The notes below the pieces were generated by a model. It ran no database searches and was not told where the DNA came from. It worked only from the letters and a program-made list of their open reading frames with translations. A program made the position numbers and the translations under genes. From an uncultured Eubacteriales bacterium (GTDB taxonomy: Bacteria; Bacillota; Clostridia; Oscillospirales; CAG-272): DNA of 64,000 nt. The DNA is taken from the NCBI GenBank assembly GCA_949299535.1, contig CASGAQ010000005.1:20424-84423 (forward strand), read 5' to 3'. Each line of letters starts with the position of its first letter. Position 1 is the stretch's first letter. Positions 4,347-19,370 of the stretch are shown one piece after another.

Positions 4347-4417
4347 AATTGTAGCTCCTTATAATATGCATTAAAAATTCAAAAAGATTGAAAGCGGAGA
4401 TGAATATCCGCTTAAAA

Positions 4418-4888
4418 TCAATATCTGTAATGAGCGAAAGCTTTGTTAGCTTCAGCCATTTTGTGTGTTTCTTCTTTTTTCTTAACTGCGCCGCCTACAT
4501 TAGCAAGTGCGTCTGTAATTTCAGCTGCGAGCTTATCTGCCATTGTTCTTTCGCCACGTTTGCGAGCAAACATAACGAGCCAACGCAGACCGAGAGTCTG
4601 TTTTCTTTCGGGGCGAACCTCCATAGGAACCTGGTAAGTAGCACCGCCTACACGGCGACCTTTAACTTCCAGAACGGGCATTATATTCTCGAAAGCTTCC
4701 TGGAATACTTCAAGCGCGTTCTTTCCTGTTTTAGTTTCAACTGTTGCGAAAGCGTCGTAAACGATCTTCTGTGCAACACCCTTCTTACCGTCTTCCATAA
4801 CTGTGTTGATAAGCTTTGTTACGAGCTTGGAATTATACACGGGATCCGGCAATACATCTCTTTTGGAAATTTGACCTCTTCTTGGCAT
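4418..4888 (-). CDS. rpsG: 30S ribosomal protein S7
   Basis: MPRRG...[11 protein letters not shown]...ANKAFAHYR; start moved to ATG at 4888 after AAGGAGG RBS. Confidence 0.98.
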
Positions 4889-5074
4889 TTGTCTTCCCTC
4901 CTTCACATAATAATGAATCTCATAGGTACTCGAAAGTTTTCTTCCGTCATGCTGTTTTGTGATTTTGAAAGAGGTGTTTGTCCACGCACAGAGCGGGTAT
5001 AAACATTTTATCTGTCAAAATGCAAAAGCACGCGATTAGACATCTTTTAAGTTTTACCTTTGTTTAGCTAAGTT

Positions 5075-5497
5075 TTATTTTGCTGCTTTTTTACCGCGTT
5101 TAGCACCGTACAAAGAACGGCTCTGCTTACGGTCGGAAACGCCCTGAGTATCGAGCGTACCGCGAATGATGTGATAACGCACACCGGGAAGGTCACGTAC
5201 TCTTCCGCCTCTGATAAGAACTACAGAGTGCTCCTGAAGGTTGTGTCCAATACCGGGGATATAGCATGTAGCTTCAAGTCCGTTTGTAAGTCTTACTCTG
5301 GCAATTTTACGAAGAGCGGAGTTAGGCTTCTTCGGTGTTGTCGTAGTAACCTTTGTGCAAACGCCGCGTCTCTGGGGAGCGGCAAGTTCCGTATACTTCT
5401 TTGTAAGAGTGTTGAAGTTCTTCTGAAGTACGGGAGATTTAGACTTGTACACGCGTTTTTCACGTCCCGAGCGAACAAGCTGGTTAAAGGTTGGCAT
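5075..5497 (-). CDS. rpsL: 30S ribosomal protein S12
   Basis: [23 protein letters not shown]. Confidence 0.99.
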
Positions 5498-5593
5498 ATC
5501 GCACCTCCTCTTTATTTTGATAGATATAAATGTTTATATAATCCGCAAATTTTGAAACGCACTTCAAAAAAAGGGAAAATATCATAAATTAAA

Positions 5594-5836
5594 TTATTTC
5601 AATGTGACGCAAACGGCGCAGTCAACGTCGATCTCGCACATTGTTCCGAGTTCTTTTTTTGTCTTTGTATCGTCAAACGGAACATCGTTTGCGCGGCAAA
5701 GTTCAGCCATTTGATGAATTATCTTGGCGTCGGCATCTTTTGCAATAAAAGCCGATGAAGCCGTTCCTCCTTTGATGAGCTTTTTGGACTGTGCAAGTCC
5801 TGCCACTAACATAGGCAAAGGGCCGTCGGTTGACAT
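5594..5836 (-). CDS. L7Ae/L30e family RNA-binding protein (YbxF-like)
   Basis: GLAQSKK..FIAKDAD..KKELGTMCEIDV pattern; canonical position upstream of rpsL; start may be 5857. Confidence 0.85.
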   Translation of the reverse strand: MSTDGPLPMLVAGLAQSKKLIKGGTASSAFIAKDADAKIIHQMAELCRANDVPFDDTKTKKELGTMCEIDVDCAVCVTLK

Positions 5837-5910
5837 ATTACATTCGATTCCTTTCATTTTTATAGTGACTGATAAAAAGACATATTATCACACATAGTCA
5901 CATATGTCAT

Positions 5911-5939
5911 ATTGTATCACCATTTTAGGTATTTGTCAA
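5911..5939 (-). promoter_or_regulatory. SigA promoter for str operon
   Basis: TTGACA-17-TACAAT with TG extension. Confidence 0.75.
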
Positions 5940-6057
5940 CCGGATTTTTATGATTTTACGTCATACTCGTCAAAAAATTTGATTTTCAAATAGAAAATCG
6001 CTTAGTTAAAGAGCGTTTCAACGTCCGGAAGACATTCAGAAATTTCTTTCTTGAAGA

Positions 6058-6086
6058 ATTATATCATATCGGGAGAAAAAAATCAA
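6058..6086 (-). promoter_or_regulatory. Second SigA promoter for str operon
   Basis: TTGATT-17-TATAAT with TG extension. Confidence 0.65.
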
Positions 6087-6116
6087 TATTCTTATGTTTT
6101 GATGTTTTAACAAGGC

Positions 6117-6149
6117 AAAAAGCCGCAGACTTTCATCTGCGGCTTTTTT
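6117..6149 (-). terminator. rpoC terminator
   Basis: AAAAAGCCGCAGA/TCTGCGGCTTTTT inverted repeat. Confidence 0.85.
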
Positions 6150-6184
6150 ATATTCAGAATCGAATAAATCAGACGTTCAAAAGA

Positions 6185-9100
6185 TCATACAGAAGCTTCG
6201 TCCGAATATTCTTCGTCGGAAGGTTCGACTTTTTTGATCTCTATATCGCGGTATTTCTTAAGACCCGTACCTGCGGGGATAAGTTTACCGATAAGAACGT
6301 TTTCTTTAAGTCCGATAAGATGGTCGACCTTGCCCTTGATAGCGGCTTCGGTAAGAACCTTTGTAGTTTCCTGGAAGGAAGCTGCTGACAGGAAGGATTC
6401 CGTCTGAATAGCAGTCTTGGTTATACCAAGGAGCATAGGTGTCGCAGCAGCAAGACGGAGCGTGCGTTCGCCTGCGTCTATGCGAGCCTGTACTCTCTTG
6501 TTTTCGTCGTTAAATTCGTCGATATCGACAACAGAACCAAAGAGAAGTTCTGTGTCGCCGCTATCTTCAACGCGAACCTTGCGCGTCATCTGACGTGCTA
6601 TAACTTCGATATGCTTGTCGTTTATCTTGATATCCTGGCTCTTATACACGCGCTGTACTTCGCGGGTAATATAGTCGTAAGCGGCTTCAAGGCCCTGAAC
6701 TCTCGCAATATCAGCCGGAGCAAGGTTGCCTTCGGTAATAAGCTCGCCGCGCATGATGTAAGAGCCTTCAGAAGGAAGTATCTTTGTTCCGTAAGGAACG
6801 GGATATACATGTTCTTCGCCGTTTTCGCTTGTGATGATAACGTTTCTGGCGCGTTTAGCATCCTGAATGCGGACGATACCGGAGTATTCTGCAAGAGTTG
6901 CGGTCTTTTTGGGTTTGCGCGCTTCGAAGATCTCCTCAACTCTGGGAAGACCCTGAGTGATATCCGCACCGGCGATACCGCCAAGGTGGAACGTTCTCAT
7001 CGTAAGCTGTGTACCGGGTTCACCGATAGACTGTGCGGCGATGATACCGACAGCTTCGCCTGCGGCAACGAGCTTGCCTGTCGCAAGGTCGGTTCCGTAG
7101 CATTTAGCGCAAATGCCGTGGCGGCATTTACATTTGAGTATGGAGCGAACGTGAACCTTTTCCACGCCTGCGGCAACTATCTTGGACGCCTGAGCAGCAG
7201 TCAAAAGCTCGCCTGCGCTTGCAATAACTTCGCCGTTTGCAGGATCGACGACATCCTCGACAAGAGTTCTGCCGGGAAGTCTTTCTTCGAGTTTTTCAAT
7301 TGTTTCATCTCCGTCGACAAGGTCGTATACCCAAATGCCTTCAGTAGTACCGCAGTCTTTTTCACGAACGATAACTTCCTGGGAAACGTCGACAAGTCGG
7401 CGTGTAAGGTAACCGGAGTCGGCTGTTTTAAGAGCCGTATCGGAAAGCGTCTTACGGGAACCACGGGCGCCGATGAAGTATTCAAGCACGTTAAGACCTT
7501 CACGGAAGTTACTCTTGATAGGCAACTCCATAGTCTTACCGGATGTAGACACCATAAGTCCGCGCATACCTGCAAGCTGTTTCATCTGAGAGATAGAACC
7601 ACGGGCACCGGAGTCACTCATCATCTTGATAGGATTGTATCTGTCAAGGCCCTTCTGGAGCGCTTCCGTAACATCTTTTGTAGCCTTATCCCAAACCGAG
7701 ATAACGCCCCTGTAACGTTCGTCATCGGACAGAAGTCCGCGGCGGAAATCTTTTGCTATCTTTTCCACTTTCTTTTCCGCATCATGTACGATTTCCTGTT
7801 TTTGAGGAGGAACGACCATGTCAAGAACGGAAATGGATATGGAAGCTTTTGTGGAATATTTAAAACCATTTGATTTGATAGCATCAAGAACCTCAGCCAT
7901 TACCGTAGGTCCATGAAGCTTTATAGTACGGTCAACTATTTTTCCAAGCTCGCTTTTAGCGGTTGTAAAGTCAACTTCAAGGTCAAGCATTTTTTCCGGG
8001 TCGCTTCTGTCGACAAATCCAAGATCCTGAGGAATGGGTTTGTTGAAAATAAGGCGTCCGAGAGTGGCATTTATAAGTTTCGTATAGACCACGCCGTTAA
8101 TCTCTTTGGAAGCACGTACCTTGATCGGGGCATGTATACCGAGCTGACCGTTTTCGTAGGCCATCATCGCCTCGTCAAAATCACGGAACACTTTCCCCTC
8201 GCCGGGTTCCCCTGCTTTGTCTATGGTAAGATAATAAGAACCAAGCACCATATCCTGAGAAGGAACGGTAACGGCTTTACCGTCGGCGGGTTTCAGGAAG
8301 TTGTTGGCGGAAAGCATAAGGAATCTTGCCTCTGCCTGAGCTTCGCTGGAAAGAGGAATATGAACAGGCATCTGGTCGCCGTCGAAGTCGGCGTTAAACG
8401 CCGCACATACGAGCGGGTGGAGCTTTATGGCTCTGCCCTCTACAAGCACGGGTTCGAAAGCCTGAATGGAAAGACGGTGAAGCGTAGGTGCACGGTTCAA
8501 AAGAACAGGGTGGTCTTTGATAACGTTTTCAAGAGCGTCCCAAACCTCGTTGGAAGCCTTGTCGACTTTCTTCTTAGCGTCTTTTATATTGGAAGCATTC
8601 TGAGTTTCAACAAGACGTTTCATAACGAACGGCTTGAAAAGCTCAAGCGCCATTTCTTTGGGAAGACCGCACTGGTATATCTTCAGAGTCGGACCTACGA
8701 CGATAACAGAACGTCCGGAATAGTCTACTCGTTTACCGAGCAAGTTCTGACGGAAACGTCCCTGTTTACCGCGAAGCATTTCCGAAAGAGATTTGAGCGG
8801 TCTGTTAGATGAACCGCCTATTACGGATTTGCCGCGTCTGCCGTTGTCGATAAGCGCGTCAACAGCTTCCTGAAGCATACGTTTTTCGTTGCGGATAATG
8901 ATTTCGGGAGCGGAAAGCTCCATAAGCTTAGCAAGCCGGTTGTTTCTGTTAATTACTCGTCTGTAAAGGTCGTTGAGGTCGGATGTGGCAAAACGTCCGC
9001 CGTCAAGCTGTACCATGGGTCGGATATCCGGAGGAATAACGGGAACAACGTCGAGTATCATCCATTCCGGTCTGTTTCCGGATTTACGGAAAGCTTCAAC

Positions 9101-9733
9101 AACTTCAAGGCGTTTGATTATGCGAAGCTTTTTCTGACCGGAAGCTTTGTCAAGCTCTTCACGAAGCTCTTTTGCAAGTGCCTCAAGGTCGAGTTCGGAA
9201 AGAAGTTCCTTGATGGCCTCCGCGCCCATGCCGACGCGGAAGTCATCTTCGTATTTTTCATAAAGATCGCGGTATTCGCGTTCCGAGAGAAGCTGTTTCT
9301 TCTCAACGGGAGCTCTGCCCGGATCAAGAACTATATACTGTGCGAAGTAAAGAACTTTTTCAAGGAGTCTGGGGGAAATATCGAGAAGAAGTCCCATTCT
9401 CGAAGGGATAGCGCGGAAATACCAGATATGGGAAACAGGAGCGGCAAGCTCAATATGTCCCATTCTTTCGCGGCGGACTTTCTTCGTAGTAACTTCTACG
9501 CCGCATTTTTCGCAGACTTTGCCTTTGTAACGAACGCGTTTGTATTTACCGCAAAGACATTCCCAGTCTTTTGTCGGTCCAAATATTTTTTCGCAGAACA
9601 AGCCGTCGCGTTCGGGTCTGAGAGTTCTGTAATTGATCGTTTCGGGCTTTGTTACCTCGCCGAAAGACCAAGATCTTATCATATCGGGAGATGCAAGACC
9701 TATTCTAATAGAATCAAAAGTGTTCTTAGCCAT
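6185..9733 (-). CDS. rpoC: RNA polymerase beta' subunit
   Basis: NADFDGD catalytic motif, Zn-finger cysteines, [13 protein letters not shown]. Confidence 0.99.
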
Positions 9734-9751
9734 TATTATTCGCTCCCTTAA

Positions 9752-12700
9752 TTATTCGTCGTAATTTTCGGTGTCGCCGTATTCTTCGTATTGTCCGTCT
9801 TCATCGAATTCGTCGTAATATTCGCCATCGTTTTCGTCGGGAACATTTTCCTCGTCATCAAGACTTGCCTGTTCGCTAAGATCGTCAACGATGGTAATAT
9901 CGTCCGCGTCACTGTCCGTTTCCACAGTTCTGCCTACATCGTCGGCAGTAATCTTGGAATCGCCGTTCATTTCGTCGTCCTCCTCGCACAGCTGAGAAAT
10001 TTCTATTTCGTTTCCGTCCTCGTCAAGAACGCGAACATCAAGCGCCAAAGACTGAAGTTCTTTGACAAGTACACGGAATGCTTCGGGAACGCCGGGGGTG
10101 GGGATATTCTTTCCTTTGACAATGGCTTCATAAGCTTTAACGCGTCCGGTGACATCGTCGGATTTGACAGTGAGAATCTCTTGAAGAGTATAAGCTGCAC
10201 CGTAAGCTTCAAGCGCCCAAACTTCCATTTCGCCGAAACGCTGACCGCCGAACTGAGCTTTACCGCCGAGAGGCTGCTGCGTAACAAGCGAGTAAGGACC
10301 TGTGCTTCTCGCGTGTATCTTATCGTCTACCAGATGATGCAGTTTAAGATAATACATTATACCGACTGTTACGGGGTTGTCGAAAGGTTCGCCCGTGCGG
10401 CCATCATAGAGAATACGTTTTCCGTCAACGGTTTTGAGTTTTTTCTCCGCAATCTTTTCTCTTACCCACTCTTTGTCTGCAAGAAGATCCGCGGGAACTG
10501 TGTTGTAAACTTTGTTGCCTTCTTCGTCGATGGTTTCTTCGTAAACGGATTTGCCGAAGAAATTCTCGCCCGGAAGTATTTCACGGTAAAGACCTGCTTC
10601 CGTGAGAGCTTCCGTTATGTCTTTTTCCTTTGCGCCGTCGAACGCAGGAGTCATTACTTTGACGCCGAGTTCCCTTGCCGCAATACCGAGGTGAACTTCA
10701 AGAACCTGACCTATGTTCATTCGGGAAGGAACGCCCAGAGGATTAAGCACAATATCAAGAGGCGTGCCGTCTGCAAGATAAGGCATATCTTCGGGAGGAA
10801 GTATACGCGAAACGACACCTTTGTTTCCGTGACGTCCCGCCATCTTGTCACCGACGGAAATCTTTCTCTTCTGAGCAATATATACTTTAACCGCTTTGTT
10901 TACACCGGGAGCAAGGTCGTCGCCGTTTTCGCGGGAGAATACTCTTATATCGGAAACGACGCCGCTGGTACCGTGAGGAAGTTTGAGAGATGTGTCACGC
11001 ACTTCTCTTGCCTTCTCGCCGAAGATGGCGCGGAGCAGTCTTTCTTCAGCGGTGAGTTCCGTTTCGCCCTTAGGCGTAACTTTACCGACGAGGATATCGC
11101 CTGCATGAACTTCCGTACCTATGCGAACGATACCGTCGGGATCAAGATCTTTGAGCGCTTCGTCGCCGCAGTTGGGGATCTCGCGCGTTATCTCTTCCGG
11201 TCCGAGTTTCGTATCTCTGGACTCCATGAGATATTCTTCGATATGGATAGACGTGTAAACGTCATCTCTTACAAGGCGCTCGTTAAGGAGAACGGCGTCC
11301 TCGTAGTTGTAACCTTCCCAAGTCATAAATCCGATAAGAGCATTCTTACCGAGTGCAATCTCGCCCTTGTCCGTTGCAGGACCGTCGGCAAGCACGTCGC
11401 CTGCATTGACGACATCTCCGACATTGACGATAGGTCTTTGATTTACGCAGTTGCCTTGGTTGGAACGTTTGAATTTGAGAAGCGTATAGTTGTCTTTTGC
11501 ACCGTTGGGGCGAGCGACGACTATTTTATCGGAAGAAACGTATTCAACAACGCCGTCGTTTCTTGCTATGATACATACGCCGGAATCAATACCTGCCTTA
11601 TATTCCATACCCGTACCTACAATAGGAGAATCAGTCGTAAGGAGAGGCACAGCCTGCTTCTGCATGTTAGAACCCATGAGCGCGCGGGCGTTGTCATCGT
11701 TTTCAAGGAACGGGATATGGCTCGTTGCTACCGAAATAGCCATTCTGGGAGAAACGTCGATGTAATCGGGAACGCTTGAATCGACTTCTATGATCTCAGC
11801 GCGGTCACGGACAGTAACGCGTTTATTGATAAATCTTCCCTCTTCGTCAAGAGGTTCGTTAGCCTGCGCGATAATGTAATTATCTTCTACATCGGCGGTC
11901 ATATATTCAACGATATCGGTAATTTTTCCGGTAGCCTTGTCTATCTTGCGATAAGGAGCTTCGATAAAGCCGTAATCGTTTATTTTAGCATAGGTAGCAA
12001 GATAAGAAATAAGACCGATGTTAGGACCTTCAGGCGTTTCGATAGGACAGATACGTCCGAAGTGAGTGTAGTGTACGTCGCGGACGTCAAAGGAGGCACG
12101 GTCACGGGAAAGACCACCGGGACCGAGAGCCGAAAGACGGCGCTTATGCGTAAGTTCTGCCAGAGGGTTGTTCTGGTCCATAAACTGAGAAAGGGGCGAA
12201 GAGCCGAAGAACTCGCGTATAGCGGCAACGACAGGTCTGATATTGATAAGTGCCTGAGGCGTAAGTGACTCAGCGTCCTGTGTCGTCATGCGCTCTTTGA
12301 TTATCTTATCCATTCTGGAGAAACCTATTCTGAGCTGGTTCTGAATAAGTTCGCCTACCGCGCGTATACGGCGGTTGCCGAGATGGTCGATATCATCGGG
12401 CGTGCCTATACCGTGGGAGAGGCAGATAAGGTAGTTGATAGACGCAAAAATATCGTCTTTTGTTATATGTTTTGGGGAAAGTTCAGCGGCACGGTCGCGA
12501 GCCTGTTTTTTAAGTTCGTCAAAATCGCCGCCGACTTCTTCGAGCATCTGAAGCAGGAGAGAGAGTTTTACTTTTTCGTTTATGCCGACTTCACGGAGGT
12601 CACAGCCTACAACTTTTGCAGGATCTACCATACCGTTGCCGAACACTTTTATCTCTCTGCCGTCTTCTATCTCAACGTAAGCTTCATTGACGCCGGCATT

Positions 12701-13690
12701 TTCGACAGCAAAAGCTTCATCTACCGTAAGTTCCTTGCCCGCGTCAAAGAGTATCTCGCCCGTGATGGGGTTGATAACCGGGCGCGTGAGTTTTCTTCCG
12801 GCAAGACGTTTGCCGAGGGCAACCTTCTTGTCGAATTTATATCTTCCGACGCTGCCGAGGTCGTATCTCTTGGGATCGAAAAAGAGATTATTGAGAAGCA
12901 GCTGAGCGCTTTCCACAAGAGGAGGTTCTCCGGGACGCATTTTCTTGTATATCTCTTTGAGAGCTTCTTCGTAAGGCGTAGTACCGTTCTTTTCGGCTTC
13001 AGCCTGCATACCGTCCTTTTCAAGAGTGGCAAGAATCTTTTTATCTTCTCCGAAATATGTTTTGATATCCGTAGACGTCGAAACACTCTCGTCAAGAGCG
13101 CGGATGAGCGTCGTAACCGGCATTTTGCGGTTCTTGTCTATCTTGACATAGAAAACGTCGTTCATGTCCGTTTCATATTCAAGCCAAGCGCCGCGGTAAG
13201 GAATAACCGTGCCGGCATAATTGTTTTTACCCAGTTTATCTGTCTGTATTTCATAGTACATACCGGGGGAACGAACAAGCTGCGAAACAACTACGCGTTC
13301 CGCGCCATTGATAACGAACGTACCCGTTTCCGTCATGAGCGGGAAATCGCCCATGAAGATATCCTGCTGTTTAACTTCGCCCGTAGATTTGTTCGTAAGT
13401 CTTACGGTAACACGAAGAGGAGCCGCATAGTTTACGTCACGCTCCTTGCTCTCTTCAACGGAACATTTGGGCGTTTCGCTGAGGTTGTAGTCTACAAATT
13501 CGATAACAAGATTACCGGCATAATCGACGATAGGGGAAACTTCTTCAAGAACTTCCGCAATACCCTTTTCCAAAAGCCATGTATATGACTTTTTCTGGAT
13601 ATCGAGGAAATCGGGCATTTCCAGGATCTCGTCTACCTTGGCAAAAGACATTCTCGTTACTTTACCAAGTTTTCTCGGTTTTGTTCTCAA
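9752..13690 (-). CDS. rpoB: RNA polymerase beta subunit
   Basis: [31 protein letters not shown]; probable TTG start at 13690 after GGAG. Confidence 0.99.
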
Positions 13691-13846
13691 TACAATCACT
13701 CCATTCAAAAATTTATGTGAGTTGCGCCGTCCGCCGCGCCGCCGGCGGAATAAATTGTATTAAAAGCCTGAAATGCGCTTCTTTTCATGTATTTTCGATA
13801 AGCTGAAAAAAGGCCGACATTACAAGCAATTATAATGCAGTATGAA

Positions 13847-13875
13847 ATTATATCACAAGTTTTTATATATGTCAA
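13847..13875 (-). promoter_or_regulatory. SigA promoter of rpoBC
   Basis: TTGACA-17-TATAAT perfect consensus with TG. Confidence 0.85.
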
Positions 13876-13905
13876 GTATAATATTTAACTTTTATTCAAA
13901 TAATA

Positions 13906-13934
13906 TTGACATTTTATTTGTATAACAATATAAT
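13906..13934 (+). promoter_or_regulatory. SigA promoter of alaS (divergent from rpoB)
   Basis: TTGACA-17-TATAAT perfect consensus. Confidence 0.85.
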
Positions 13935-14027
13935 AAATAATTATAACAAGAAAAACAGACAGCCGTATCCTACGCGGTTCGGCAAAAGACAAAACAAAAA
14001 AAATTAAAAGATCAAGAGGACACTCAC

Positions 14028-16661
14028 ATGAAATGGACATCTCTTAACGACCTGCGCGAAAAATACCTTTCATTTTTCGAATCAAAAGGTCATTTGAGCC
14101 GCGGCAGTTATTCTCTCGTTCCCGAAAACGACAAATCCCTGCTGTTGATAGTCGCAGGCATGGCTCCGCTCAAAAAATATTTCACGGGCGAAGCAGAACC
14201 GCCCCGCCGCCGCATGGCCACCTGCCAGAAGTGCATACGCACAAACGATATAGAACACGTCGGATACACAGCCCGTCACGGTACATTCTTCGAAATGCTC
14301 GGAAACTTCTCTTTCGGAGATTATTTCAAAGAAGAAGCGCTCACATGGGCATGGGAATTTCTTACGAAAGTGCTTGAAATACCCGAAGACCTTCTCTGGC
14401 CCTCCGTATATGAAAAGGACGAAGAAGCGTATTCCATCTGGAAAGACAAGATAGGCGTTCGTGAAGACCATATCGTTCGTCTGGGCAAAGAGGACAACTT
14501 CTGGGAACACGGCTCCGGTCCCTGCGGTCCCTGCTCCGAGATATATTTCGACCGCGGCGAAAAATACGGCTGCGACAGACCCGATTGCCGTCCGGGCTGC
14601 AACTGCGACAGATACATGGAGATATGGAACAACGTATTCTCTCAGTTCAATAACGACGGCAACGGAAATTATACGGAACTCGCTCATAAAAACATCGACA
14701 CAGGTATGGGACTTGAACGCTTGGCGTGCGTAATGCAGGGCGTAGACAACATGTTCGAAGTCGATACGATACAGAACATAATCTCTGCGGCAAGCCAAAA
14801 GGCAGGCGTTCGCTATAAAGAAGACGAAAAAGCCGACGTTTCCCTGCGTATAATAGCAGACCATTCCAGAGCCTCCGCATTTCTTATCGCAGACGGCGTA
14901 ATGCCCTCCAACGAAGGACGAGGATATGTTCTCCGCAGACTTCTCAGACGCGCCTGCCGTCACGGCAGAATACTCGGCATCAAGGGAGCATTCCTCTGCG
15001 ATGTTATGGCAGTCGTTGCGCGCGAGAACAGGACTGCATATCCCGAACTCACCGAAAAGCTTGATTATATAAGCAAGATAGTACGCATGGAGGAAGACCG
15101 CTTCAATGCGACGGTCGAATCCGGTATGAATCTTCTCGACAGACTCATTTCCGAGGCAAAAGCCACAGGAAACTCTGCACTTGACGGCGCCGACGTATTC
15201 AAACTATCCGACACATACGGCTTCCCTCTCGACCTCACACGCGAAATAGCCGCAGAACAAGGTATCAGCATCGACGAAAAAGGATTTGAGGAGAACCTCG
15301 CCGCGCAGAAGCAACGCGCACGTGCCGCACGCGGAAATATCAGCGGTTGGGACGACAACATGAAGTCGCTCATCGACACTTCCGTAAAGACGGAATTTCT
15401 CGGATATGAAAAAGATGAAACAGAGGGTAAGATAATCTCAATCATCGACGGCGAAACGGATGAGCTTTGCGACATCGCAAGCGATTCCGCCGTGATCATC
15501 ACGGACAAAACCGTATTCTACGGCGAAGGCGGCGGTCAGATAGGCGACACCGGCGTCATTATTGGTGCAAACGGCAAGGCAGTCGTTACGGATACAAAGA
15601 AGAACGACGGCGTCTATATGCACATCTGCAAAATAGAAACAGGTTCACTTTCCGTCGGAGATACAGTTACGCTTCGCGTAGACTCCGAAAGACGCGCTGC
15701 AATATCCCGCAACCATTCCGCAGTACATCTTCTCGACGCGGCTCTTCGCAGCGTGCTCGGAACACACATCCAACAGGCAGGTTCTTATGTAAGCGACAAG
15801 CTCGCGCGTTTTGACTTTACTCATTTTGCCGCAGTAAGCGCAGATGAACTCAAGAAAGTAGAAAAACTCGTAAACGAAAAGATTCTTGAAGCACTCGAAG
15901 TTACAACCGAGGAAACGGATATAGAAAGCGCAAAGAAATCCGGTGCGATCGCTCTGTTCGGTGAAAAATACGGCTCCACTGTCCGCGTTGTACGCATAAG
16001 CGATTTCTCCGCAGAGCTTTGCGGCGGCGTACACGTTTCCAATACAGGCAAGATAGGACTCTTCAAGATACTTTCAGAAAGCTCCGTTGCCGCAGGTACA
16101 AGAAGAATAGAAGCCGTTACGGGACTTGAAGCATACGACTATGTAAACGGCAAAATAAGCACCGTATCGGAAGTAATGTCGGCTCTCAAAGTAAACGACG
16201 AAAAAGATATAACCGCAAAGATATCGGCTCTTGAGTCAAGCCTCAAGGACGCAAAACGCGCTCTTGAAGAAGAAAAGCTCAAATCCGCAAAGGCAAGCGC
16301 CTCCGAAACGCTTTCCGGCGCGACTGTTCTCTCCTCTGGTATAAAAGTTGCTTCCATGAAGACGGATATGCCTATAAACACAGTTCGTTCTCTCGGCGAC
16401 GATATCAAAGCAAGTGACGAAAACATTGTTGCAGTAATATCTTCGCTTGTCGACGGCAAGCTCACCATATCCTGCGTATGCGGTAAAAATGCCGTCAAAG
16501 CAGGAATTACGGCTCCCGCGGTACTCATAGGAGTATCGGCGTATGTCGGCGGCGGCGGCGGCGGAAGACCTGACAGCGCAACAGCGGGTGTAAAAGACCC
16601 TTCCCGACTCGACGAAGCAATGTCCGCTCTTCCCGAAATAGTAAACGCTCTTATAAAATAA
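14028..16661 (+). CDS. alaS: Alanyl-tRNA synthetase
   Basis: RHGTFFEMLGNFSFGDYFK, IDTGMGLER, HSAVH/ELCGGVH editing motifs, GGGGGRP. Confidence 0.99.
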   Translation: MKWTSLNDLREKYLSFFESKGHLSRGSYSLVPENDKSLLLIVAGMAPLKKYFTGEAEPPRRRMATCQKCIRTNDIEHVGYTARHGTFFEMLGNFSFGDYFKEEALTWAWEFLTKVLEIPEDLLWPSVYEKDEEAYSIWKDKIGVREDHIVRLGKEDNFWEHGSGPCGPCSEIYFDRGEKYGCDRPDCRPGCNCDRYMEIWNNVFSQFNNDGNGNYTELAHKNIDTGMGLERLACVMQGVDNMFEVDTIQNIISAASQKAGVRYKEDEKADVSLRIIADHSRASAFLIADGVMPSNEGRGYVLRRLLRRACRHGRILGIKGAFLCDVMAVVARENRTAYPELTEKLDYISKIVRMEEDRFNATVESGMNLLDRLISEAKATGNSALDGADVFKLSDTYGFPLDLTREIAAEQGISIDEKGFEENLAAQKQRARAARGNISGWDDNMKSLIDTSVKTEFLGYEKDETEGKIISIIDGETDELCDIASDSAVIITDKTVFYGEGGGQIGDTGVIIGANGKAVVTDTKKNDGVYMHICKIETGSLSVGDTVTLRVDSERRAAISRNHSAVHLLDAALRSVLGTHIQQAGSYVSDKLARFDFTHFAAVSADELKKVEKLVNEKILEALEVTTEETDIESAKKSGAIALFGEKYGSTVRVVRISDFSAELCGGVHVSNTGKIGLFKILSESSVAAGTRRIEAVTGLEAYDYVNGKISTVSEVMSALKVNDEKDITAKISALESSLKDAKRALEEEKLKSAKASASETLSGATVLSSGIKVASMKTDMPINTVRSLGDDIKASDENIVAVISSLVDGKLTISCVCGKNAVKAGITAPAVLIGVSAYVGGGGGGRPDSATAGVKDPSRLDEAMSALPEIVNALIK

Positions 16662-16700
16662 ATCAGGAAATAAATCAAGAAAAGGAGTATATATAATATT

Positions 16701-17045
16701 ATGGTAGAAAATTGTCTTTTCTGCAAAATAATAAACGGAGATATCCCCTCAAAAAAAGCGTACGAAGACGATAAGATACTCGCATTCTATGATATAGCGC
16801 CTCAGGCTCCCGTACACATTCTCGTCATTCCGAAAACGCACATCTCATGTGCAGACGAGATAAACAGCAGCAATTCCTCCATTGTAGCTTATATATTTGA
16901 AAAGATCCCCTTTATCGCCAAAGAAGCGGGTATCGAAAACGGATACCGCATAATATCAAACTGCGGCCCCGACGCCTGCCAATCCGTACACCATATCCAC
17001 TTCCATATTCTCGGCGGCGCACAGCTTTCCGAAAAAATGGCGTGA
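16701..17045 (+). CDS. HIT family (histidine triad) nucleotide-binding protein
   Basis: CLFCKI, DIAPQAPVHILVIPK, HIHFHILGG. Confidence 0.95.
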   Translation: MVENCLFCKIINGDIPSKKAYEDDKILAFYDIAPQAPVHILVIPKTHISCADEINSSNSSIVAYIFEKIPFIAKEAGIENGYRIISNCGPDACQSVHHIHFHILGGAQLSEKMA

Positions 17046-17190
17046 CATCTGTTTGACATAAAATCATAAACATAAAATATAATAAAAGGCTCAAAAACGT
17101 TCCCCCGCTCCCGTTCTCAAAAAACGGAATCGGGGGAGCATGAGCCGTATATGTGATGAAAAAATATTTTCAGGAAAATTCGCAAAACTA

Positions 17191-17220
17191 TTGACAAATC
17201 ATATAAAAGTATGATAAAAT
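17191..17220 (+). promoter_or_regulatory. Promoter of tRNA-Ser(GCT)
   Basis: TTGACA-18-TAAAAT with TG. Confidence 0.6.
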
Positions 17221-17264
17221 AATCAAGTCTTGTGAATGAGGTCTTATTTAATATATTTTTATTC

Positions 17265-17359
17265 GGAGAAGTACTCAAGTTGGCCGAAGAGGCGCCCCTG
17301 CTAAGGGTGTAGGTCGGGCTATTTCCGGCGCGAGAGTTCAAATCTCTCCTTCTCCGCCA
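17265..17359 (+). tRNA. tRNA-Ser(GCT)
   Basis: GGAGAAG/CTTCTCC acceptor stem, CT-GCT-AA loop, long variable arm, GTTCAAAT, G-CCA end. Confidence 0.96.
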
Positions 17360-17430
17360 AAATTGAATAATCCGAACACCATAGTTTTCGTGAAAGCGGA
17401 ATACTGGGGAGTTTGGGTTACCAACAGAAT

Positions 17431-17467
17431 AAGGTAGGAACAAAGCGTTCCTACCTTTTCTTTTTTT
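17431..17467 (+). terminator. Terminator after tRNA-Ser(GCT)
   Basis: AAGGTAGGAAC/GTTCCTACCTT plus T-run. Confidence 0.8.
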
Positions 17468-18266
17468 ATGTCGCCACCTTCTGTATAGGCACATATTCGG
17501 GGACGGGGTCTGCCGCCTGTTCAGGTGCTTCCTCTTCCTCGTCTTCCTCCTCTTCAGGTTCAGGATGCGCGTCGAAGTACTGCATCGCCTGATTCATGAG
17601 GTCGGTCTGGTCGTCCATATAGTTTACGGTGTCAAAGACGATATTCTCGTAGCCGAACTTGTAGCCCGTAAAGCCGTTCATTACAACGGCGAGGAGCTTG
17701 AGCATACAGGATGCAAAAATCACCCATGTAGGCTCTACGACCATGTCCAGAACGATAATACTCATGACGAGCGATATCAGGAAGGTCGAGACGAACTTCA
17801 CGCCAAAGTTAATGCTCTTTTTGGTCTCAGGCTTCGTTCCGAGCGGAGCGCGGCGGCTTGAGCCTCTGCCGCGCTTCATAATCATCTCAGGAGTGAGCTT
17901 TACGGGCTTTATGGCGTTTGCTTTTATGAGTGCCGCCTTCTGAACCTTGGAGAGCTTCGGGTCTTTCTCGATGGTCTCCTCATCCAGTCCGAGCCACTTT
18001 TTGCGATATTCCTTATATCCAAAGCCTACGACTGCCAGAACCGACATTCTTGCGTTCTTCAGCTCGTCGTCGATATAGTACCTGCAGAACTCGTGGAGTC
18101 TGGTCTGACGCTGAGCGTCGATGATATCTTTGTATGCAATGGTCGTTTCACCAGTTTGTATATTGAGAGCGTGCGACTTGAAGATCATGGCGTTTTCTTC
18201 AAAATGCAGACGCCCTCCTACGGCTTCACTTCCTCTGAACAAATTAGCGGCTATGATTTTTTTCAT
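17466..18266 (-). CDS. Probable chimeric hypothetical membrane protein (GRAM-like N-terminal fragment fused to a two-TM protein with acidic tail)
   Basis: ATG at 18266 after GGAAGG; first ~48 aa resemble bacterial GRAM-like domains; remainder has GC-richer codons, two hydrophobic segments, Glu-rich tail. Confidence 0.55.
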   Translation of the reverse strand: MKKIIAANLFRGSEAVGGRLHFEENAMIFKSHALNIQTGETTIAYKDIIDAQRQTRLHEFCRYYIDDELKNARMSVLAVVGFGYKEYRKKWLGLDEETIEKDPKLSKVQKAALIKANAIKPVKLTPEMIMKRGRGSSRRAPLGTKPETKKSINFGVKFVSTFLISLVMSIIVLDMVVEPTWVIFASCMLKLLAVVMNGFTGYKFGYENIVFDTVNYMDDQTDLMNQAMQYFDAHPEPEEEEDEEEEAPEQAADPVPEYVPIQKVAT

Positions 18267-18338
18267 ATGATCTTTCCTTCCAAAAAAAAATGAAGCCGCA
18301 AGGTTGCCTTGCGACATTTGCGGTTTCAGCCGCAACTT

Positions 18339-18391
18339 TGGCGGAGAGGAAGGGATTCGAACCCTTGTGGGGTTGCCCCCAAACGGTTTTC
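18339..18391 (-). pseudogene. Orphan 3' half of tRNA-Ser (att-site remnant)
   Basis: Minus strand GAAAACCGTTTGGGGGCAACCCCACAAGGGTTCGAATCCCTTCCTCTCCGCCA: anticodon 3' strand, variable arm, T arm, acceptor and CCA, no 5' half. Confidence 0.9.
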
Positions 18392-18610
18392 GAACGAAAC
18401 GGGCTGAAAAAGATCCGCTTCCACGATCTAAGGCACTCCTGCGCCTCGCTGATGCTGGCAAACGATATTTCCATGAAAGAGATTCAGGAATGGCTTGGCC
18501 ATAGCAATATCAGTACCACGGCAAATATTTATGCGCACGTGGACAGCGAAAGCAAGCGAGAGAGTGCCAAAATCATCGACAAGGTTCTGTCATCAGAAGA
18601 AGCCGTATAA
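18392..18610 (+). pseudogene. C-terminal remnant of tyrosine integrase
   Basis: IRFHDLRH, WLGHS, TTANIYAH catalytic boxes; N-terminal part missing, fused to tRNA fragment. Confidence 0.92.
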
Positions 18611-18612
18611 GC

Positions 18613-18645
18613 AAAAAATAGGGTCAGGACTGCCATCCTGACCCC
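18613..18645 (-). terminator. Terminator after tRNA-Ser(TGA)
   Basis: GGGTCAGGA/TCCTGACCC followed by TATTTTTT on minus strand. Confidence 0.8.
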
Positions 18646-18649
18646 AAAG

Positions 18650-18738
18650 TGGCGGAGAGTGTGAGATTCGAACTCACGCGCCGTTGCCGGCAAACGGTTT
18701 TCAAGACCGCCTCGTTATGACCGCTTCGATAACTCTCC
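18650..18738 (-). tRNA. tRNA-Ser(TGA), intact copy
   Basis: GGAGAGT/ACTCTCC acceptor, CT-TGA-AA loop, variable arm, GTTCGAAT, G-CCA. Confidence 0.96.
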
Positions 18739-18898
18739 GTGTATCAAACTGACCGTAAGGTCAGCAAATACCAAAGTATGAAATTGAGAAAATTGCGAGA
18801 AAACTGCGAGATGCCCATCTCGCAAAGTGCAAGAAAAAGTGCGAAAAGCCCAATAAAATCAAGGGTTTTGGGGAGTTTGCTGTGATCAGAACGATAGT

Positions 18899-18939
18899 TT
18901 TTCAAGACCGCCTCGTTATGACCGCTTCGATACCTCTCC
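18899..18939 (-). repeat. tRNA-Ser(TGA) 5'-half copy (G7 variant)
   Basis: GGAGAGGTATCGAAGCGGTCATAACGAGGCGGTCTTGAAAA then unrelated sequence. Confidence 0.95.
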
Positions 18940-19090
18940 ATTTATGAAACTGTCTTTTGACAGAAATCATCTGATATTCAATTGTTTTAGAAATTCTTTT
19001 AGAAATGCGCTTTTATGCTGCTTTCGGAGTACCGAAAAAGTCAGGTGTTGCAAGGCTTTTCCCGATTTTTGCGTCTGCATCGCTCGCAAA

Positions 19091-19131
19091 TTTTCAAGAC
19101 CGCCTCGTTATGACCGCTTCGATAACTCTCC
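19091..19131 (-). repeat. tRNA-Ser(TGA) 5'-half copy (T7 variant)
   Basis: GGAGAGTTATCGAAGCGGTCATAACGAGGCGGTCTTGAAAA, identical to 5' half of intact tRNA. Confidence 0.95.
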
Positions 19132-19280
19132 GTGTATCAAACTGACCGCAAGGTCAGCAAATACCAAAGTATGAAATTTAGAAAACTGCGAGATGCCCAT
19201 CTCGCAAAGTACAAGAAAAAGTGCGAAAAAACCAATAAAATCAAGGGTTTTGGGGAGTTTGCTGTGATCAGAACGATAGT

Positions 19281-19321
19281 TTTTCAAGACCGCCTCGTTA
19301 TGACCGCTTCGATACCTCTCC
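19281..19321 (-). repeat. tRNA-Ser(TGA) 5'-half copy (G7 variant), promoter-proximal
   Basis: Same 41-mer directly downstream of the promoter. Confidence 0.95.
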
Positions 19322-19341
19322 GTATTTAACATAGCTTTGAT

Positions 19342-19370
19342 ATTATACCACGCAAACTCACTTTTGTCAA
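19342..19370 (-). promoter_or_regulatory. SigA promoter of tRNA-Ser(TGA) array
   Basis: TTGACA-17-TATAAT with TG extension. Confidence 0.88.

What the first reader, a model, noticed from the sequence alone, without database searches (positions are those of the whole stretch)
18650..19370. Promoter-driven array of tRNA-Ser 5' halves separated by ~150-bp modules: candidate miniature integrative elements that supply the tRNA 5' half
Seen (minus strand): consensus promoter, then 41-nt 5' half (19281-19321), module X (149 bp), 5' half (19091-19131), module Y (151 bp), 5' half (18899-18939), module X' (160 bp), and the only intact tRNA-Ser(TGA). All three halves stop at the same point (CTTGAAAA), just past the anticodon. 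Established: tyrosine integrases often cross over in tRNA anticodon loops, but they usually supply the 3' half and leave a 3' fragment. Inference: each ~190-200 bp unit (module + 5' half) is an attP-only, cargo-free element of the opposite polarity, serially integrated in trans. At least two types (X, Y) are present, stacked like an integration record. Because the array lies between promoter and tRNA, tRNA-half RNAs would be co-transcribed (possible decoys, or extra att targets). A simple tandem duplication could explain X/X' but not Y.
Basis: partly seen in the sequence, partly recalled or inferred. Interest (0 to 1): 0.85.

Follow-up and report, generated by a model that had tools for sequence, protein, structure and literature searches.

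The report
Scars of serial tRNA-Ser island insertions
The repeated tRNA-Ser front halves are real, and they look like leftovers of integrase-carrying mobile islands that cut the tRNA gene in its anticodon loop and bring their own complete replacement tRNA, one island after another.

Summary
On the minus strand a consensus promoter is followed by three 41-nt tRNA-Ser 5' halves, each ending in the anticodon loop. They are separated by modules X (149 bp), Y (151 bp) and X' (160 bp), and then comes the only intact tRNA-Ser(TGA).

The units are probably not cargo-free elements that supply a 5' half. Just downstream lie a tyrosine-integrase C-terminal remnant and an orphan tRNA-Ser 3' half. That orphan pairs with half1/half3, not with the intact tRNA.

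Relatives hold whole elements of the form: host 5' half | module | own complete tRNA-Ser | integrase | cargo | P arm | host 3' half. The module's direct repeats recur in the P arm, so the module reads as the P' arm of attP.

Each later element inserts into the previous element's tRNA. Once the older body is lost, a "5' half + module" scar remains.

The architecture is common: 64 of 401 genomes of the order, and 42 of 45 examinable integrase-linked tRNA-Ser loci. Relatives do the same at tRNA-Leu.

The principle matches "tRNA-dependent lysogeny" of actinobacteriophages (2024). Here it appears on islands of Clostridia and Bacilli, and the scar arrays are a consequence I did not find described. 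I rate it a new variant of a known kind.

The parts
19342..19370 (-). Consensus sigma-70-type promoter (TTGACA-17-TATAAT with TG) upstream of half1. Probably the resident tRNA-Ser promoter.
   Evidence: 12 of 12 matches. 19371-19281 is 78% identical to the promoter plus first half of G005 and G006.
19281..19321 (-). 5' half 1 (GGAGAGG type), ending in the anticodon loop CTTGAAAA. The displaced 5' half of the tRNA that was hit first.
19132..19280 (-). Module X (149 bp): the P'-arm-like left end of an X-type element. It holds the AAAACCCTTG motif (19251-19242) and an inverted pair of the TCTCGCA repeat (19206-19187). It lacks one repeat copy present in X'.
   Evidence: X-like modules occur in 20 other genomes of 400 searched.
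19091..19131 (-). 5' half 2 (GGAGAGT type), 41 of 41 identical to the 5' half of the intact X'-linked tRNA. The 5' half of an X-borne tRNA that was split by a Y-type element.
18940..19090 (-). Module Y (151 bp): the P'-arm-like left end of a Y-type element, with direct repeats ATTTCTAAAA at 19006-18997 and 18994-18985.
   Evidence: 95%, 91%, 87%, 82%, 78% and 71% identity in G001, G044, G052, G005, G006 and G035.. The same repeat stands in P arms beside orphan 3' halves in G005.
18899..18939 (-). 5' half 3 (GGAGAGG type), 41 of 41 identical to the 5' half of the Y-linked tRNA of G001, G044 and G052. The 5' half of the Y-borne tRNA, split by an X-type element.
18739..18898 (-). Module X' (160 bp): AAAACCCTTG at 18869-18860, inverted TGCGAGA at 18824-18818, and direct TCTCGCA / TTTCTC repeats across 18811-18786.
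   Evidence: The same repeat motif is seen in a P arm in G189 and about 92 nt before the orphan 3' half in run X3.
18650..18738 (-). Intact tRNA-Ser(TGA) with acceptor stem GGAGAGT/ACTCTCC. Read as element-borne and now the only tRNA-Ser(TGA) found in the assembly.
18619..18646 (-). Terminator-like hairpin plus T run after the tRNA.
18390..18610 (+). C-terminal remnant (about 73 aa) of a tyrosine integrase. It keeps HDLRH, LGHS and the Tyr region, and its 3' end faces the tRNA. The N-terminal ~320 aa are missing.
   Evidence: Pfam PF00589, E 5e-15. Aligned with full-length relatives. In runs X3 and X8 the gene runs on upstream of 18390.
18339..18391 (-). Orphan tRNA-Ser 3' half (..CCTCTCCGCCA) that starts in the anticodon loop (GAAAAC). 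It is the partner of half3/half1. It is 53 of 53 identical to the 3' half of the Y-linked tRNA of G044 and G052.
18294..18338 (-). Sequence downstream of the orphan 3' half, including a terminator-like hairpin at 18315-18295. It is homologous to the stretch after the Y-linked tRNA in G001.
   Evidence: 18391-18294 is 88% identical over 102 nt..

Best explanation
The array is a stack of scars left by tyrosine-integrase elements (genomic islands or integrative mobilizable elements). These elements integrate into the anticodon loop of tRNA-Ser through a core of only 7-10 bp, so the host tRNA is split and not rebuilt. Each element carries, about 150 bp from its attP core and in the same orientation as the target, a complete tRNA-Ser gene that replaces the broken one. 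The ~150-bp module between core and tRNA is the P' arm of attP and bears arm-type integrase-binding repeats. The integrase gene follows the tRNA on the other strand. The element-borne tRNA is itself a fresh attB. A later element inserts into it, pushing 'module + 5' half' of the earlier element upstream and its '3' half + integrase + cargo' downstream. When the downstream remainder is lost, only the 190-bp scar stays. Read from the promoter, the history in the window is as follows. A resident tRNA (half1) was hit by an X-type element. That element's tRNA (half2) was hit by a Y-type element. The Y-borne tRNA (half3 plus the orphan 3' half) was hit again by an X-type element, whose tRNA is the functional gene today and whose integrase is reduced to ~73 codons. 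Shown: the anatomy, the pairing logic of the halves, whole elements and arm repeats in relatives, and the prevalence. Inferred: the order of events, how the bodies were lost, that the repeats bind the integrase, and how the replacement tRNA is transcribed (probably by read-through from the resident promoter).
For: (1) Pairing logic in the window. The intact tRNA is GGAGAGT/ACTCTCC, while the orphan 3' half ends CCTCTCC and pairs with GGAGAGG of half1/half3. The orphan begins at the same loop position where the halves end. (2) Y travels with a whole tRNA. In four genomes of four genera (G001, G044, G052, G035) the half before Y varies (GGAGGGT three times, GGAGGAT once), but the tRNA after Y is GGAGAGG...CCTCTCC in all four. 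Its 5' half equals half3 (41 of 41 in G001, G044 and G052). Its 3' half equals the window's orphan (53 of 53 in G044 and G052; about 96% in G035). G001 has HTH_17, integrase, relaxase and an AAA_25 protein downstream. (3) A whole element in G096 (L045). From left to right: 5' half GCAGAGG..GCTGA at 581-622, a 145-bp module, a complete self-consistent tRNA-Ser(CGA) at 768-858, integrase at 951-2240, about 15 kb of cargo, then the orphan 3' half ..TCAGT..CCTCTGC at 17740-17797. The two orphan halves pair with each other in both stems. (4) Arm repeats. In G096 the exact 9-mer GTTCTCTCC occurs 6 times in 20 kb: twice in the module, three times 160-195 nt before the right-hand core, and once at the integrase start. 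In Merdimmobilis hominis An559, AGTTCTAAT occurs 3 times in 20 kb: once in the module and twice in the P arm. The Y repeat stands in P arms next to orphan 3' halves in G005. The X repeat stands in the P arm of G189 and of run X3. (5) The integrase model has an N-terminal three-strand-plus-helix domain (residues 3-54, pLDDT 85-91). The whole model aligns with full-length lambda Int and with Tn1549 Int. (6) Stacking caught in the act. M. hominis An559 has promoter-half-module-half-module-tRNA-int-cargo-P arm-core|orphan 3' half, followed by a second integrase. (7) A more intact X-type element exists in other samples. In runs X3 and X8 the integrase reading frame continues upstream of 18390. By my own translation of the 30-letter loose end, it reads ..YVTEHFKVI.., which matches ..YVTDHFKVV.. 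of L070. (8) Prevalence. 64 of 401 genomes of the order (46 of 177 genera) have two tRNA-Ser D-arm motifs at unit spacing, against 0 with the reversed control. Of 80 integrase loci, 47 have a full tRNA-Ser next to the integrase. Of the 45 with enough flank, 39 have an upstream 5' half plus module, 3 have a P-arm-core-module junction, and 3 have a promoter directly upstream. (9) The principle has been shown experimentally in phages (PMC10865867; I read the abstract and sections 5 and 11).
Against: No whole element or P arm survives in the window itself, so its history is inferred from relatives. The G005 array does not fit simply. Its first half and the final tRNA's 5' half are identical and both pair with the final 3' half, while two orphan 3' halves elsewhere in that genome have another anticodon-stem strand. 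In M. hominis the orphan 3' half mismatches every upstream half at one or two acceptor positions. 3 of 45 integrase loci show promoter-tRNA-integrase with no module, so classical members of the family may exist. No convincing promoter for the replacement tRNA was found in the modules. X and X' even carry a terminator-like inverted repeat, so expression is unexplained. X and X' (97-98% identical) could come from one unequal exchange of a 382-bp unit rather than from two integrations. No excision, circle or RNA evidence exists. The order of units is not confirmed by long reads.
Confidence: 0.8

Rival explanations
1. Each ~190-bp unit (module + 5' half) is an independent, cargo-free miniature integrative element of reversed polarity. 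It is moved in trans by an integrase and supplies the tRNA 5' half. The downstream integrase remnant and orphan 3' half belong to an unrelated classical element.
For: Units have a tight size range (median 190 nt, range 171-236, 74 distinct units). Many arrays have no integrase nearby: for G098, the tRNA-Ser HMM scan of 20 kb downstream found no orphan 3' half, and I did not run an integrase search there; in G189 no integrase within 20 kb either side of the X copy. In G005 the first half, the last 5' half and the last 3' half fit together as if the units had been inserted between them. Every unit holds a core plus arm repeats, so core-by-core recombination could in principle excise or insert it.
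Against: It needs two co-adapted elements wherever one suffices. In G096 and in the window, the 5' and 3' halves of the functional tRNA match each other and differ from the host's halves. The 3' half linked to Y is constant across four genera while the host half varies. In G096, arm repeats lie in the module but not between the element tRNA and the integrase, so the outer junction is the real attL. Neither X nor Y has a second copy elsewhere in the window's own genome.
Confidence: 0.08
2. No mobile element is needed for the array itself. It arose by local tandem duplication or unequal crossing-over of the tRNA upstream region, followed by decay of the extra 3' halves.
For: half1-X-half2 and half3-X'-5' half of the tRNA are 97-98% identical and stand 382 bp apart. 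That is what one unequal exchange would give.
Against: It does not explain Y. It does not explain the identical cut point in the anticodon loop in dozens of genomes, nor modules shared between families of the order next to integrases. It does not explain orphan 3' halves kilobases away that pair with the upstream halves. At most it explains the X/X' step.
Confidence: 0.04
3. The array is kept because it works as RNA or as a DNA decoy. Co-transcribed 5' tRNA halves or the arm-site clusters would regulate tRNA-Ser, titrate incoming integrases, or distract anticodon nucleases. The mobile-element origin would then be secondary.
For: A perfect promoter reads into the array. Contigs of an RNA library (X15) cover the integrase remnant, tRNA, X', half3 and Y. 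The tool warns that DNA can be present in such a library.
Against: Module sequences turn over quickly and differ between close relatives. There is no Rfam family. The one conserved hairpin-like motif has no covariation support. Contigs cannot show transcript ends.
Confidence: 0.05

Closest known systems
tRNA-dependent lysogeny of actinobacteriophages (Fionnbharth and other cluster K4 and L phages; Guerrero-Bustamante & Hatfull, mBio 2024, PMC10865867; I read the abstract and sections 5 and 11)
   Same: [quoted passage not shown] Putative arm-type sites flank the attP core.
   Different: Here the carriers are islands or mobilizable elements, not phages. G096 carries ParB_N, AAA_25, restriction-modification methylase and specificity subunits, and HTH_17. 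G001 carries a relaxase. The hosts are Clostridia and Bacilli. The targets are the anticodon loops of tRNA-Ser, and of tRNA-Leu in relatives. The replacement tRNA lies directly between P' arm and integrase, co-oriented with the target, so it lands behind the host's tRNA promoter. It serves as the next attB, which produces arrays of 5'-half scars. Dependence of the host on the element tRNA is not tested here.
Classical tRNA/tmRNA-gene islands as defined for Islander (PMC4383910; passages read)
   Same: Tyrosine integrase. Crossover at the anticodon-loop subsite, which is very common (2083 of 3919 islands). Displaced tDNA fragments mark island ends. Tandem arrays are known (125 with two or more islands, 4 with three or more). 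A minority of islands have a 5' fragment (159 of 3919).
   Different: Classical islands restore the gene by fusing their own tDNA part to the host's remaining part, leaving one displaced fragment per island. Here both host halves become orphans and the working gene lies wholly inside the element. The 5' fragment and the full tRNA are only ~150 bp apart, and the integrase lies on the far side of the tRNA. A search that requires the integrase between fragment and tDNA would miss this layout.
Element with reversed target-gene orientation
   Same: A displaced 5' fragment upstream, and promoter-side sequence supplied by the element.
   Different: As I recall it, that element supplies only the 5' part. 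Here the right-hand junction has no 5' half next to the orphan 3' half, and the element holds a complete tRNA.
Prophage Lj965 of Lactobacillus johnsonii (known to me only as cited in the Discussion of PMC10865867)
   Same: A Firmicute case in which integration fails to rebuild the tRNA and the prophage encodes a cognate tRNA.
   Different: It is a prophage. Scar arrays and attP-adjacent placement of the tRNA are not mentioned in the passage I read.

Membership tests
Integration with element-borne replacement tRNA ('tRNA-dependent' integration) | A tyrosine integrase is encoded by the element. | tested here: met
   PF00589 hits for the window remnant and for full-length relatives next to the tRNA. 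The window copy is only a ~73-aa remnant.
Integration with element-borne replacement tRNA ('tRNA-dependent' integration) | [quoted passage not shown] | tested here: met
   G096: the left junction is GACTCGAAAT|module and the right junction is ..AAAGACTCGAAAT|3' half. The shared core is about 10 nt, and neither junction is a tRNA. Window: the halves end at CTTGAAAA and the orphan starts at GAAAAC.
Integration with element-borne replacement tRNA ('tRNA-dependent' integration) | The element carries a complete tRNA of the same isotype. | tested here: met
   G096 tRNA-Ser(CGA) at 768-858 lies inside the insertion and is self-consistent. Window tRNA-Ser(TGA) lies between half3 and the orphan 3' half.
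Integration with element-borne replacement tRNA ('tRNA-dependent' integration) | The element tRNA is required for survival of integrants. | not testable with these tools
   Only indirect: ARAGORN finds a single tRNA-Ser(TGA) in the 98%-complete assembly.
Integration with element-borne replacement tRNA ('tRNA-dependent' integration) | The carrier is a temperate phage, as in the published definition. | tested here: not met
   10 proteins of the G096 region were scanned against Pfam (one of them the L034 integrase) and no phage structural family appeared. G001 has a relaxase. Not every ORF was scanned.
Classical tDNA island (Islander definition) | The island restores the split gene by fusion, leaving one displaced fragment. 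| tested here: not met
   Both host halves are orphans in G096 and in the window. The working tRNA's two halves match each other, not the orphans.
   The right junctions are P arm-core|3' half in G096, G005 and M. hominis, and integrase remnant|3' half in the window. No 5' half stands there.
Heterobivalent (lambda / Tn916-type) tyrosine integrase with arm-type sites | An N-terminal arm-binding domain is present. | tested here: inconclusive
   The model has three strands plus a helix at residues 3-54 with pLDDT 85-91, and the whole model aligns over 381 columns with full-length lambda Int 1z1b. Pfam Arm-DNA-bind_4 reaches only E 0.017, below its cut-off. The N-domain was not searched on its own.
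Heterobivalent (lambda / Tn916-type) tyrosine integrase with arm-type sites | Repeated arm-type sites stand on both sides of the attP core. | tested here: met
   The same 9-mers occur in module and P arm in G096 and M. hominis, and likewise for the Y and X repeat types. Binding itself is not tested.

The most novel reading that the evidence does not exclude
The 190-bp units are not dead scars. Each keeps a core plus arm-type sites, so a resident or incoming integrase can cut units out as mini-circles and put them back at any core, shuffling arrays as the G005 arrangement hints. The stacked arm sites and spare cores could act as landing pads or as sponges that steer or block related elements. 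The promoter-driven 5' halves could also be made as RNA. In that reading the array is a working part of the contest between islands for one tRNA gene.
Probability: 0.12. Interest if true: 0.8.

Novelty: new variant of a known kind. Interest (0 to 1): 0.55.

Why it matters
The finding extends a principle shown only recently in mycobacteriophages: split the tRNA and bring your own. Here it applies to non-phage islands across gut Clostridia and to Bacilli, at tRNA-Ser and tRNA-Leu.

A plausible reason follows from the anatomy. A crossover in the anticodon loop would otherwise join 5' and 3' halves whose acceptor stems differ between hosts (GGAGAGG, GGAGGGT, GGAGGCA and GCAGAGG are all seen). Carrying a whole tRNA removes that host-range limit and also recreates the attachment site for the next element.

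There are practical consequences. Island finders that expect one displaced 3' fragment, with the integrase between fragment and gene, will miss these elements. Contigs often break at these arrays. The functional tRNA-Ser of many gut MAGs may be of foreign origin. The scar arrays give an ordered record of past island turnover at one site.

Tried and rejected
Rfam gave nothing but tRNA for the array. It also gave nothing for the odd inserts in related halves.

A conserved AAAnCCTTG..GGGTTTTCG motif 35-65 nt after the core looked like a hairpin or terminator. RNAalifold predicted no consensus pairs on 41 modules. My hand-drawn 4-bp helix paired 58.5% of cells against 60.1% in shuffles. I do not call it a structure. 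The same motif also occurs away from tRNA genes (L076, L079, L084).

I looked for a promoter inside the modules. The scan found none on the tRNA strand apart from 19370. The consensus of the last 60 nt of 74 units shows only ..AAttATATAC directly before the tRNA, which native genes share. No promoter is claimed.

The X copy in G189 was followed up as a possible free attP. No integrase lies within 20 kb on either side, and the adjoining tRNA has non-complementary acceptor strands. I read it as a relic.

Reading the integrase remnant as an SSV-type split integrase was rejected, because the ~500-bp insert cannot hold the missing part.

The junction of the integrase remnant with the orphan half shares only 2-4 nt with the core (my reading). 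Whether that deletion was integrase-mediated or microhomology-mediated stays open.

Laying Logan contigs could not confirm the order of units. The probable source run X1 had no cover over X or most of X'. One short X1 contig joins 18386 to 18899, that is, an uninterrupted Y-type tRNA. Because that tRNA is shared by several genera, it may come from another organism.

RNA-library contigs over the array (X15) show presence only, not transcription.

Pfam found nothing for the 331-aa ORF at 17466-18461 that runs through the orphan half.

I could not resolve the histories of the G005 and M. hominis arrays in full.

Literature. Searches found the 2024 phage paper and papers citing it (listings and abstracts only for the rest). 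They found no description of 5'-half scar arrays or of this layout in Clostridia.
Full report
**1. What is in the window**

All features are read on the minus strand.
- A perfect sigma-70-type promoter at 19370-19342 (TTGACA, 17 nt, TATAAT with an upstream TG).
- A 41-nt tRNA-Ser 5' half at 19321-19281.
- Module X, 149 bp.
- A second half at 19131-19091.
- Module Y, 151 bp.
- A third half at 18939-18899.
- Module X', 160 bp.
- The intact tRNA-Ser(TGA) at 18738-18650.
- A terminator-like hairpin at 18646-18619.

All halves end at CTTGAAAA in the anticodon loop. half1-X-half2 and half3-X'-tRNA 5' half are 97-98% identical.

Two further facts change its meaning.
- Halves 1 and 3 begin GGAGAGG, whereas half 2 and the intact tRNA begin GGAGAGT.
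- Immediately downstream there are two more pieces. One is the last ~73 codons of a tyrosine integrase on the plus strand (18390-18610; PF00589, E 5e-15). Fused to it is an orphan tRNA-Ser 3' half (18391-18339) that starts at the same loop position and ends CCTCTCCGCCA.

That orphan pairs with GGAGAGG (half1/half3). The intact tRNA has its own matched stem, GGAGAGT/ACTCTCC. The DNA between half3 and the orphan half therefore reads as an insertion. It holds X', a whole tRNA, a terminator and an integrase remnant.

**2. What relatives show for Y**

Among 100 relatives, half-Y-half is conserved in G001 (95%), G044 (91%), G052 (87%), G005 (82%), G006 (78%) and G035 (71%).

In G001, G044, G052 and G035, which belong to four genera, the half before Y varies: GGAGGGT three times and GGAGGAT once. 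The tRNA after Y is always GGAGAGG...CCTCTCC.
- Its 5' half equals the window's half3.
- Its 3' half equals the window's orphan half (53 of 53 in G044 and G052).
- The ~50 nt after the orphan half, aligned together with it (18391-18294), are 88% like those of G001.

So Y travels with a complete tRNA, not only with a 5' half. In G001 that tRNA is followed by an HTH_17 protein, an integrase, a MobA/VirD2-type relaxase and an AAA_25 protein. That gene set is typical of an integrative mobilizable element.

**3. A whole element**

G096 (locus L045) has the following layout.

| Feature | Position in L045 |
|---|---|
| 5' half GCAGAGG..GCTGACTCGAAAT | 581-622 |
| Module, 145 bp | between half and tRNA |
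| Complete, self-consistent tRNA-Ser(CGA), GGAGAGT/ACTCTCC | 768-858 |
| Integrase on the other strand | 951-2240 |
| About 15 kb of cargo | between integrase and right end |
| ..AAAGACTCGAAAT followed by orphan 3' half CAGTT...CCTCTGCGCCA | 17740-17797 |

The two orphan halves pair with each other in the acceptor stem and the anticodon stem. The identity shared by the two junctions is about 10 nt.

The element therefore splits the host tRNA, does not rebuild it, and brings a replacement. Its cargo includes a ParB_N protein, an AAA_25 protein, a restriction-modification methylase and specificity subunit, a cyclase-domain protein and, at the right end, an HTH_17 protein. No phage structural family appeared among the proteins scanned.

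**4. What the module is**

In G096 the exact 9-mer GTTCTCTCC occurs six times in 20 kb:
- twice in the module, 82 and 95 nt after the left core;
- three times 160-195 nt before the right core;
- once at the integrase start.

In Merdimmobilis hominis An559, AGTTCTAAT occurs three times in 20 kb: once in the module next to the tRNA and twice in the arm before the right core.

The Y repeat ATTTCTAAAA (window 19006-18985) stands in several copies about 170 nt from a core|orphan-3'-half junction in G005.

The X repeat (TCTCGCA / TTTCTC; window 18824-18786 and 19206-19187) has two parallels outside the window.
- It recurs about 100 nt before a core that is followed by X in G189.
- It recurs 92 nt before the orphan 3' half on a 14-kb contig of run X3.

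Repeats on both sides of the core in the circular form are the layout of arm-type sites. On that basis the module is the P' arm of attP.

The integrase family fits this reading.
- Its model has an N-terminal three-strand-plus-helix domain (residues 3-54, pLDDT 85-91).
- The whole model aligns with full-length lambda Int and with Tn1549 Int.
- Pfam's arm-domain model reaches only E 0.017, so I rate the domain assignment as likely, not shown.

**5. How arrays form**

The element-borne tRNA has a perfect anticodon stem-loop, so it is a fresh attB. The window shows the chain.
- half2 equals the 5' half of the X'-linked tRNA and is followed by Y.
- half3 equals the 5' half of the Y-linked tRNA and is followed by X'.

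M. hominis An559 shows an intermediate state. Its layout is promoter, half, module, half, module, tRNA-Ser(CGA), integrase, ~15 kb of cargo, P arm, core|orphan 3' half, and directly behind that a second, older integrase. Four of the 80 integrase loci have just such an 'orphan 3' half + integrase'.

The older bodies can be lost in several ways. Candidates are recombination between cores, recombination between the two direct 3' halves, or other deletions. That step is inferred.

In the window the last element has itself decayed. In runs X3 and X8 the integrase frame continues upstream of 18390. My own translation of the loose end gives ..YVTEHFKVI.., compared with ..YVTDHFKVV.. in L070. In the window the frame is joined to the orphan half with only 2-4 shared bases.

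X and X' may stem from two integrations of X-type elements or from one unequal exchange of the 382-bp unit. I cannot tell which.

**6. How common it is**

- A pattern of two tRNA-Ser D-arm motifs 155-185 nt apart matched in 64 of 401 genomes of the order, counting the window's own. That is 55 of 325 high-quality genomes and 46 of 177 genera. The reversed control matched none.
- X-like modules were found in 20 other genomes of 400. Of the 19 loci fetched, 13 had a full tRNA-Ser hit and 6 an integrase within the short flanks. Six loci matched only the short AAACCCTTG motif and are not modules.
- An integrase alignment found 80 loci in named genomes. These include Oscillospiraceae, Ruminococcaceae, Acutalibacteraceae, Faecalibacterium, Merdimmobilis, Lachnoanaerobaculum, Anaerotignum, Paenibacillus, Cohnella and Syntrophomonas.

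Of those 80 loci:

| Class | Loci |
|---|---|
| Full tRNA-Ser right after the integrase | 47 |
| Only an orphan 3' half after the integrase | 4 |
| tRNA-Leu after the integrase | 16 |
| tRNA-Tyr | 2 |
| tRNA-Gln | 1 |
| Nothing, or too little flank | 10 |

Of the 47 with a full tRNA-Ser, 31 had an HMM-detected upstream 5' half. I inspected 14 of the other 16; two (L112, L122) had too little flank. The 14 divide as follows:
- 8 had a 5' half of another tRNA-Ser type, or a decayed one, plus a module;
- 3 had P arm-core-module with no half, which looks like attP;
- 3 had a promoter directly before the tRNA.

Of the 16 tRNA-Leu loci, 12 gave a fuzzy 5'-half hit upstream; one of these, L180, lay at an odd distance. 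All six that I read by eye show the same half-module-tRNA-integrase layout: Paenibacillus twice, Cohnella, Caproicibacter, a Syntrophomonadaceae MAG and an Acutalibacteraceae MAG.

The window's own genome has a second, shortened scar before its tRNA-Ser(CGA) at a contig end.

**7. Comparison with what is known**

The principle is that of tRNA-dependent lysogeny (PMC10865867; I read the abstract and sections 5 and 11). [quoted passage not shown] That paper expects the phenomenon beyond actinobacteriophages and names Lj965.

Islander (PMC4383910; passages read) records 159 of 3919 islands with a 5' fragment and 125 tandem arrays. Its model is restoration by fusion, and it requires the integrase within the candidate island.

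As far as my three literature searches show, the following are new here:
- the carriers are islands and mobilizable elements of Clostridia and Bacilli;
- the targets are tRNA-Ser and tRNA-Leu anticodon loops;
- the replacement tRNA sits inside the attP region;
- 5'-half scar arrays result.

Still, the units keep a core and arm sites, so trans-mobilisation is not excluded. The G005 array hints at shuffling.

**8. What remains open**

- How the replacement tRNA is transcribed. No module promoter was found, and X and X' carry a terminator-like inverted repeat.
- Whether the 5' halves exist as RNA. Contigs of an RNA library cover the region, but this proves nothing.
- The role of the conserved AAAnCCTTG motif, which has no covariation support.
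- The unit order in the window, which is not confirmed by long reads.
- The exact histories of the G005 and M. hominis arrays.

**9. Verdict**

Its mechanism is mostly explained by a known principle in a new setting. I put 0.8 on the scar-array explanation and rate interest at 0.55.

Noticed in passing
Own genome contig C14:34445-34611 (locus L002), outside the window: A second scar in the same genome. After a promoter comes a tRNA-Ser(CGA) 5' half, then only a 37-bp spacer, then a complete tRNA-Ser(CGA) with a different anticodon stem. The contig ends 5 nt after the tRNA.
   Followed up: partly
L069 (G153) about 560-900, L075 (G403) about 1400-1750, L033 (G036) 6613-7000, L040 (G060) 7895-8095; also G281 C2 and G330 C48: A second class of unit. 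In some loci the tRNA-Ser 5' part stops after the D arm (about nt 26-28) and is followed by TGAGCAAA..., a hairpin..GAAGCG..AAGGAGC. In other loci a ~110-nt insert of this kind interrupts the D loop of an otherwise complete 5' half. There is no Rfam match. It may mark another crossover site or an unknown small element or RNA.
   Followed up: partly
L127, L183 (Paenibacillus), L151 (Cohnella, complete genome), L152 (Caproicibacter), L174 (Syntrophomonadaceae), L160: Related integrases sit next to tRNA-Leu with the same layout: promoter, tRNA-Leu 5' half ending in the anticodon loop, a ~130-150-bp module with paired direct repeats (often GTTCTCTCC), a complete tRNA-Leu, then the integrase. Both targets are long-variable-arm tRNAs.
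   Followed up: partly
L045 (G096 C43) 2278-17466: The cargo of the whole 17-kb element includes a ParB_N protein, an AAA_25 protein, an N6_Mtase/Eco57I-type methylase with an HSDR_N_2 domain, a type I specificity subunit, a protein with a weak nucleotide-cyclase domain hit, and an HTH_17 protein by the right arm. It looks like a small defence island.
   Followed up: partly
L076 (G202), L079 (G073), L084 (G108): The ~40-nt motif AAACCCTTGATTTTAYTGGGTTTT..CCCAGTTTTTC, which is shared with module X, also occurs away from any tRNA-Ser piece. Its role is unknown.
   Followed up: no
window 17265-17359 (+) and 17466-18263 (-): A tRNA-Ser(GCT) gene with its own promoter-like site (17191-17220) converges on the array. 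Between it and the orphan half lies an ORF of about 266 aa starting MKKIIAANLF. It has an acidic tail and no Pfam match.
   Followed up: partly
L066 / L085-L086 (G189 C3, about 25.3-25.6 kb): A copy of X (93% identical over 111 nt) is preceded by a P-arm-like stretch and a core instead of a tRNA half. It is followed by a tRNA-Ser-like gene whose acceptor strands do not pair. No integrase lies within 20 kb on either side. It is probably a relic of a tandem or attP-type junction.
   Followed up: partly
L033 10248-10314 (-): An Rfam pemK RNA match (63.6 bits; gathering score 34.8) lies inside the element next to the G036 array.
   Followed up: no
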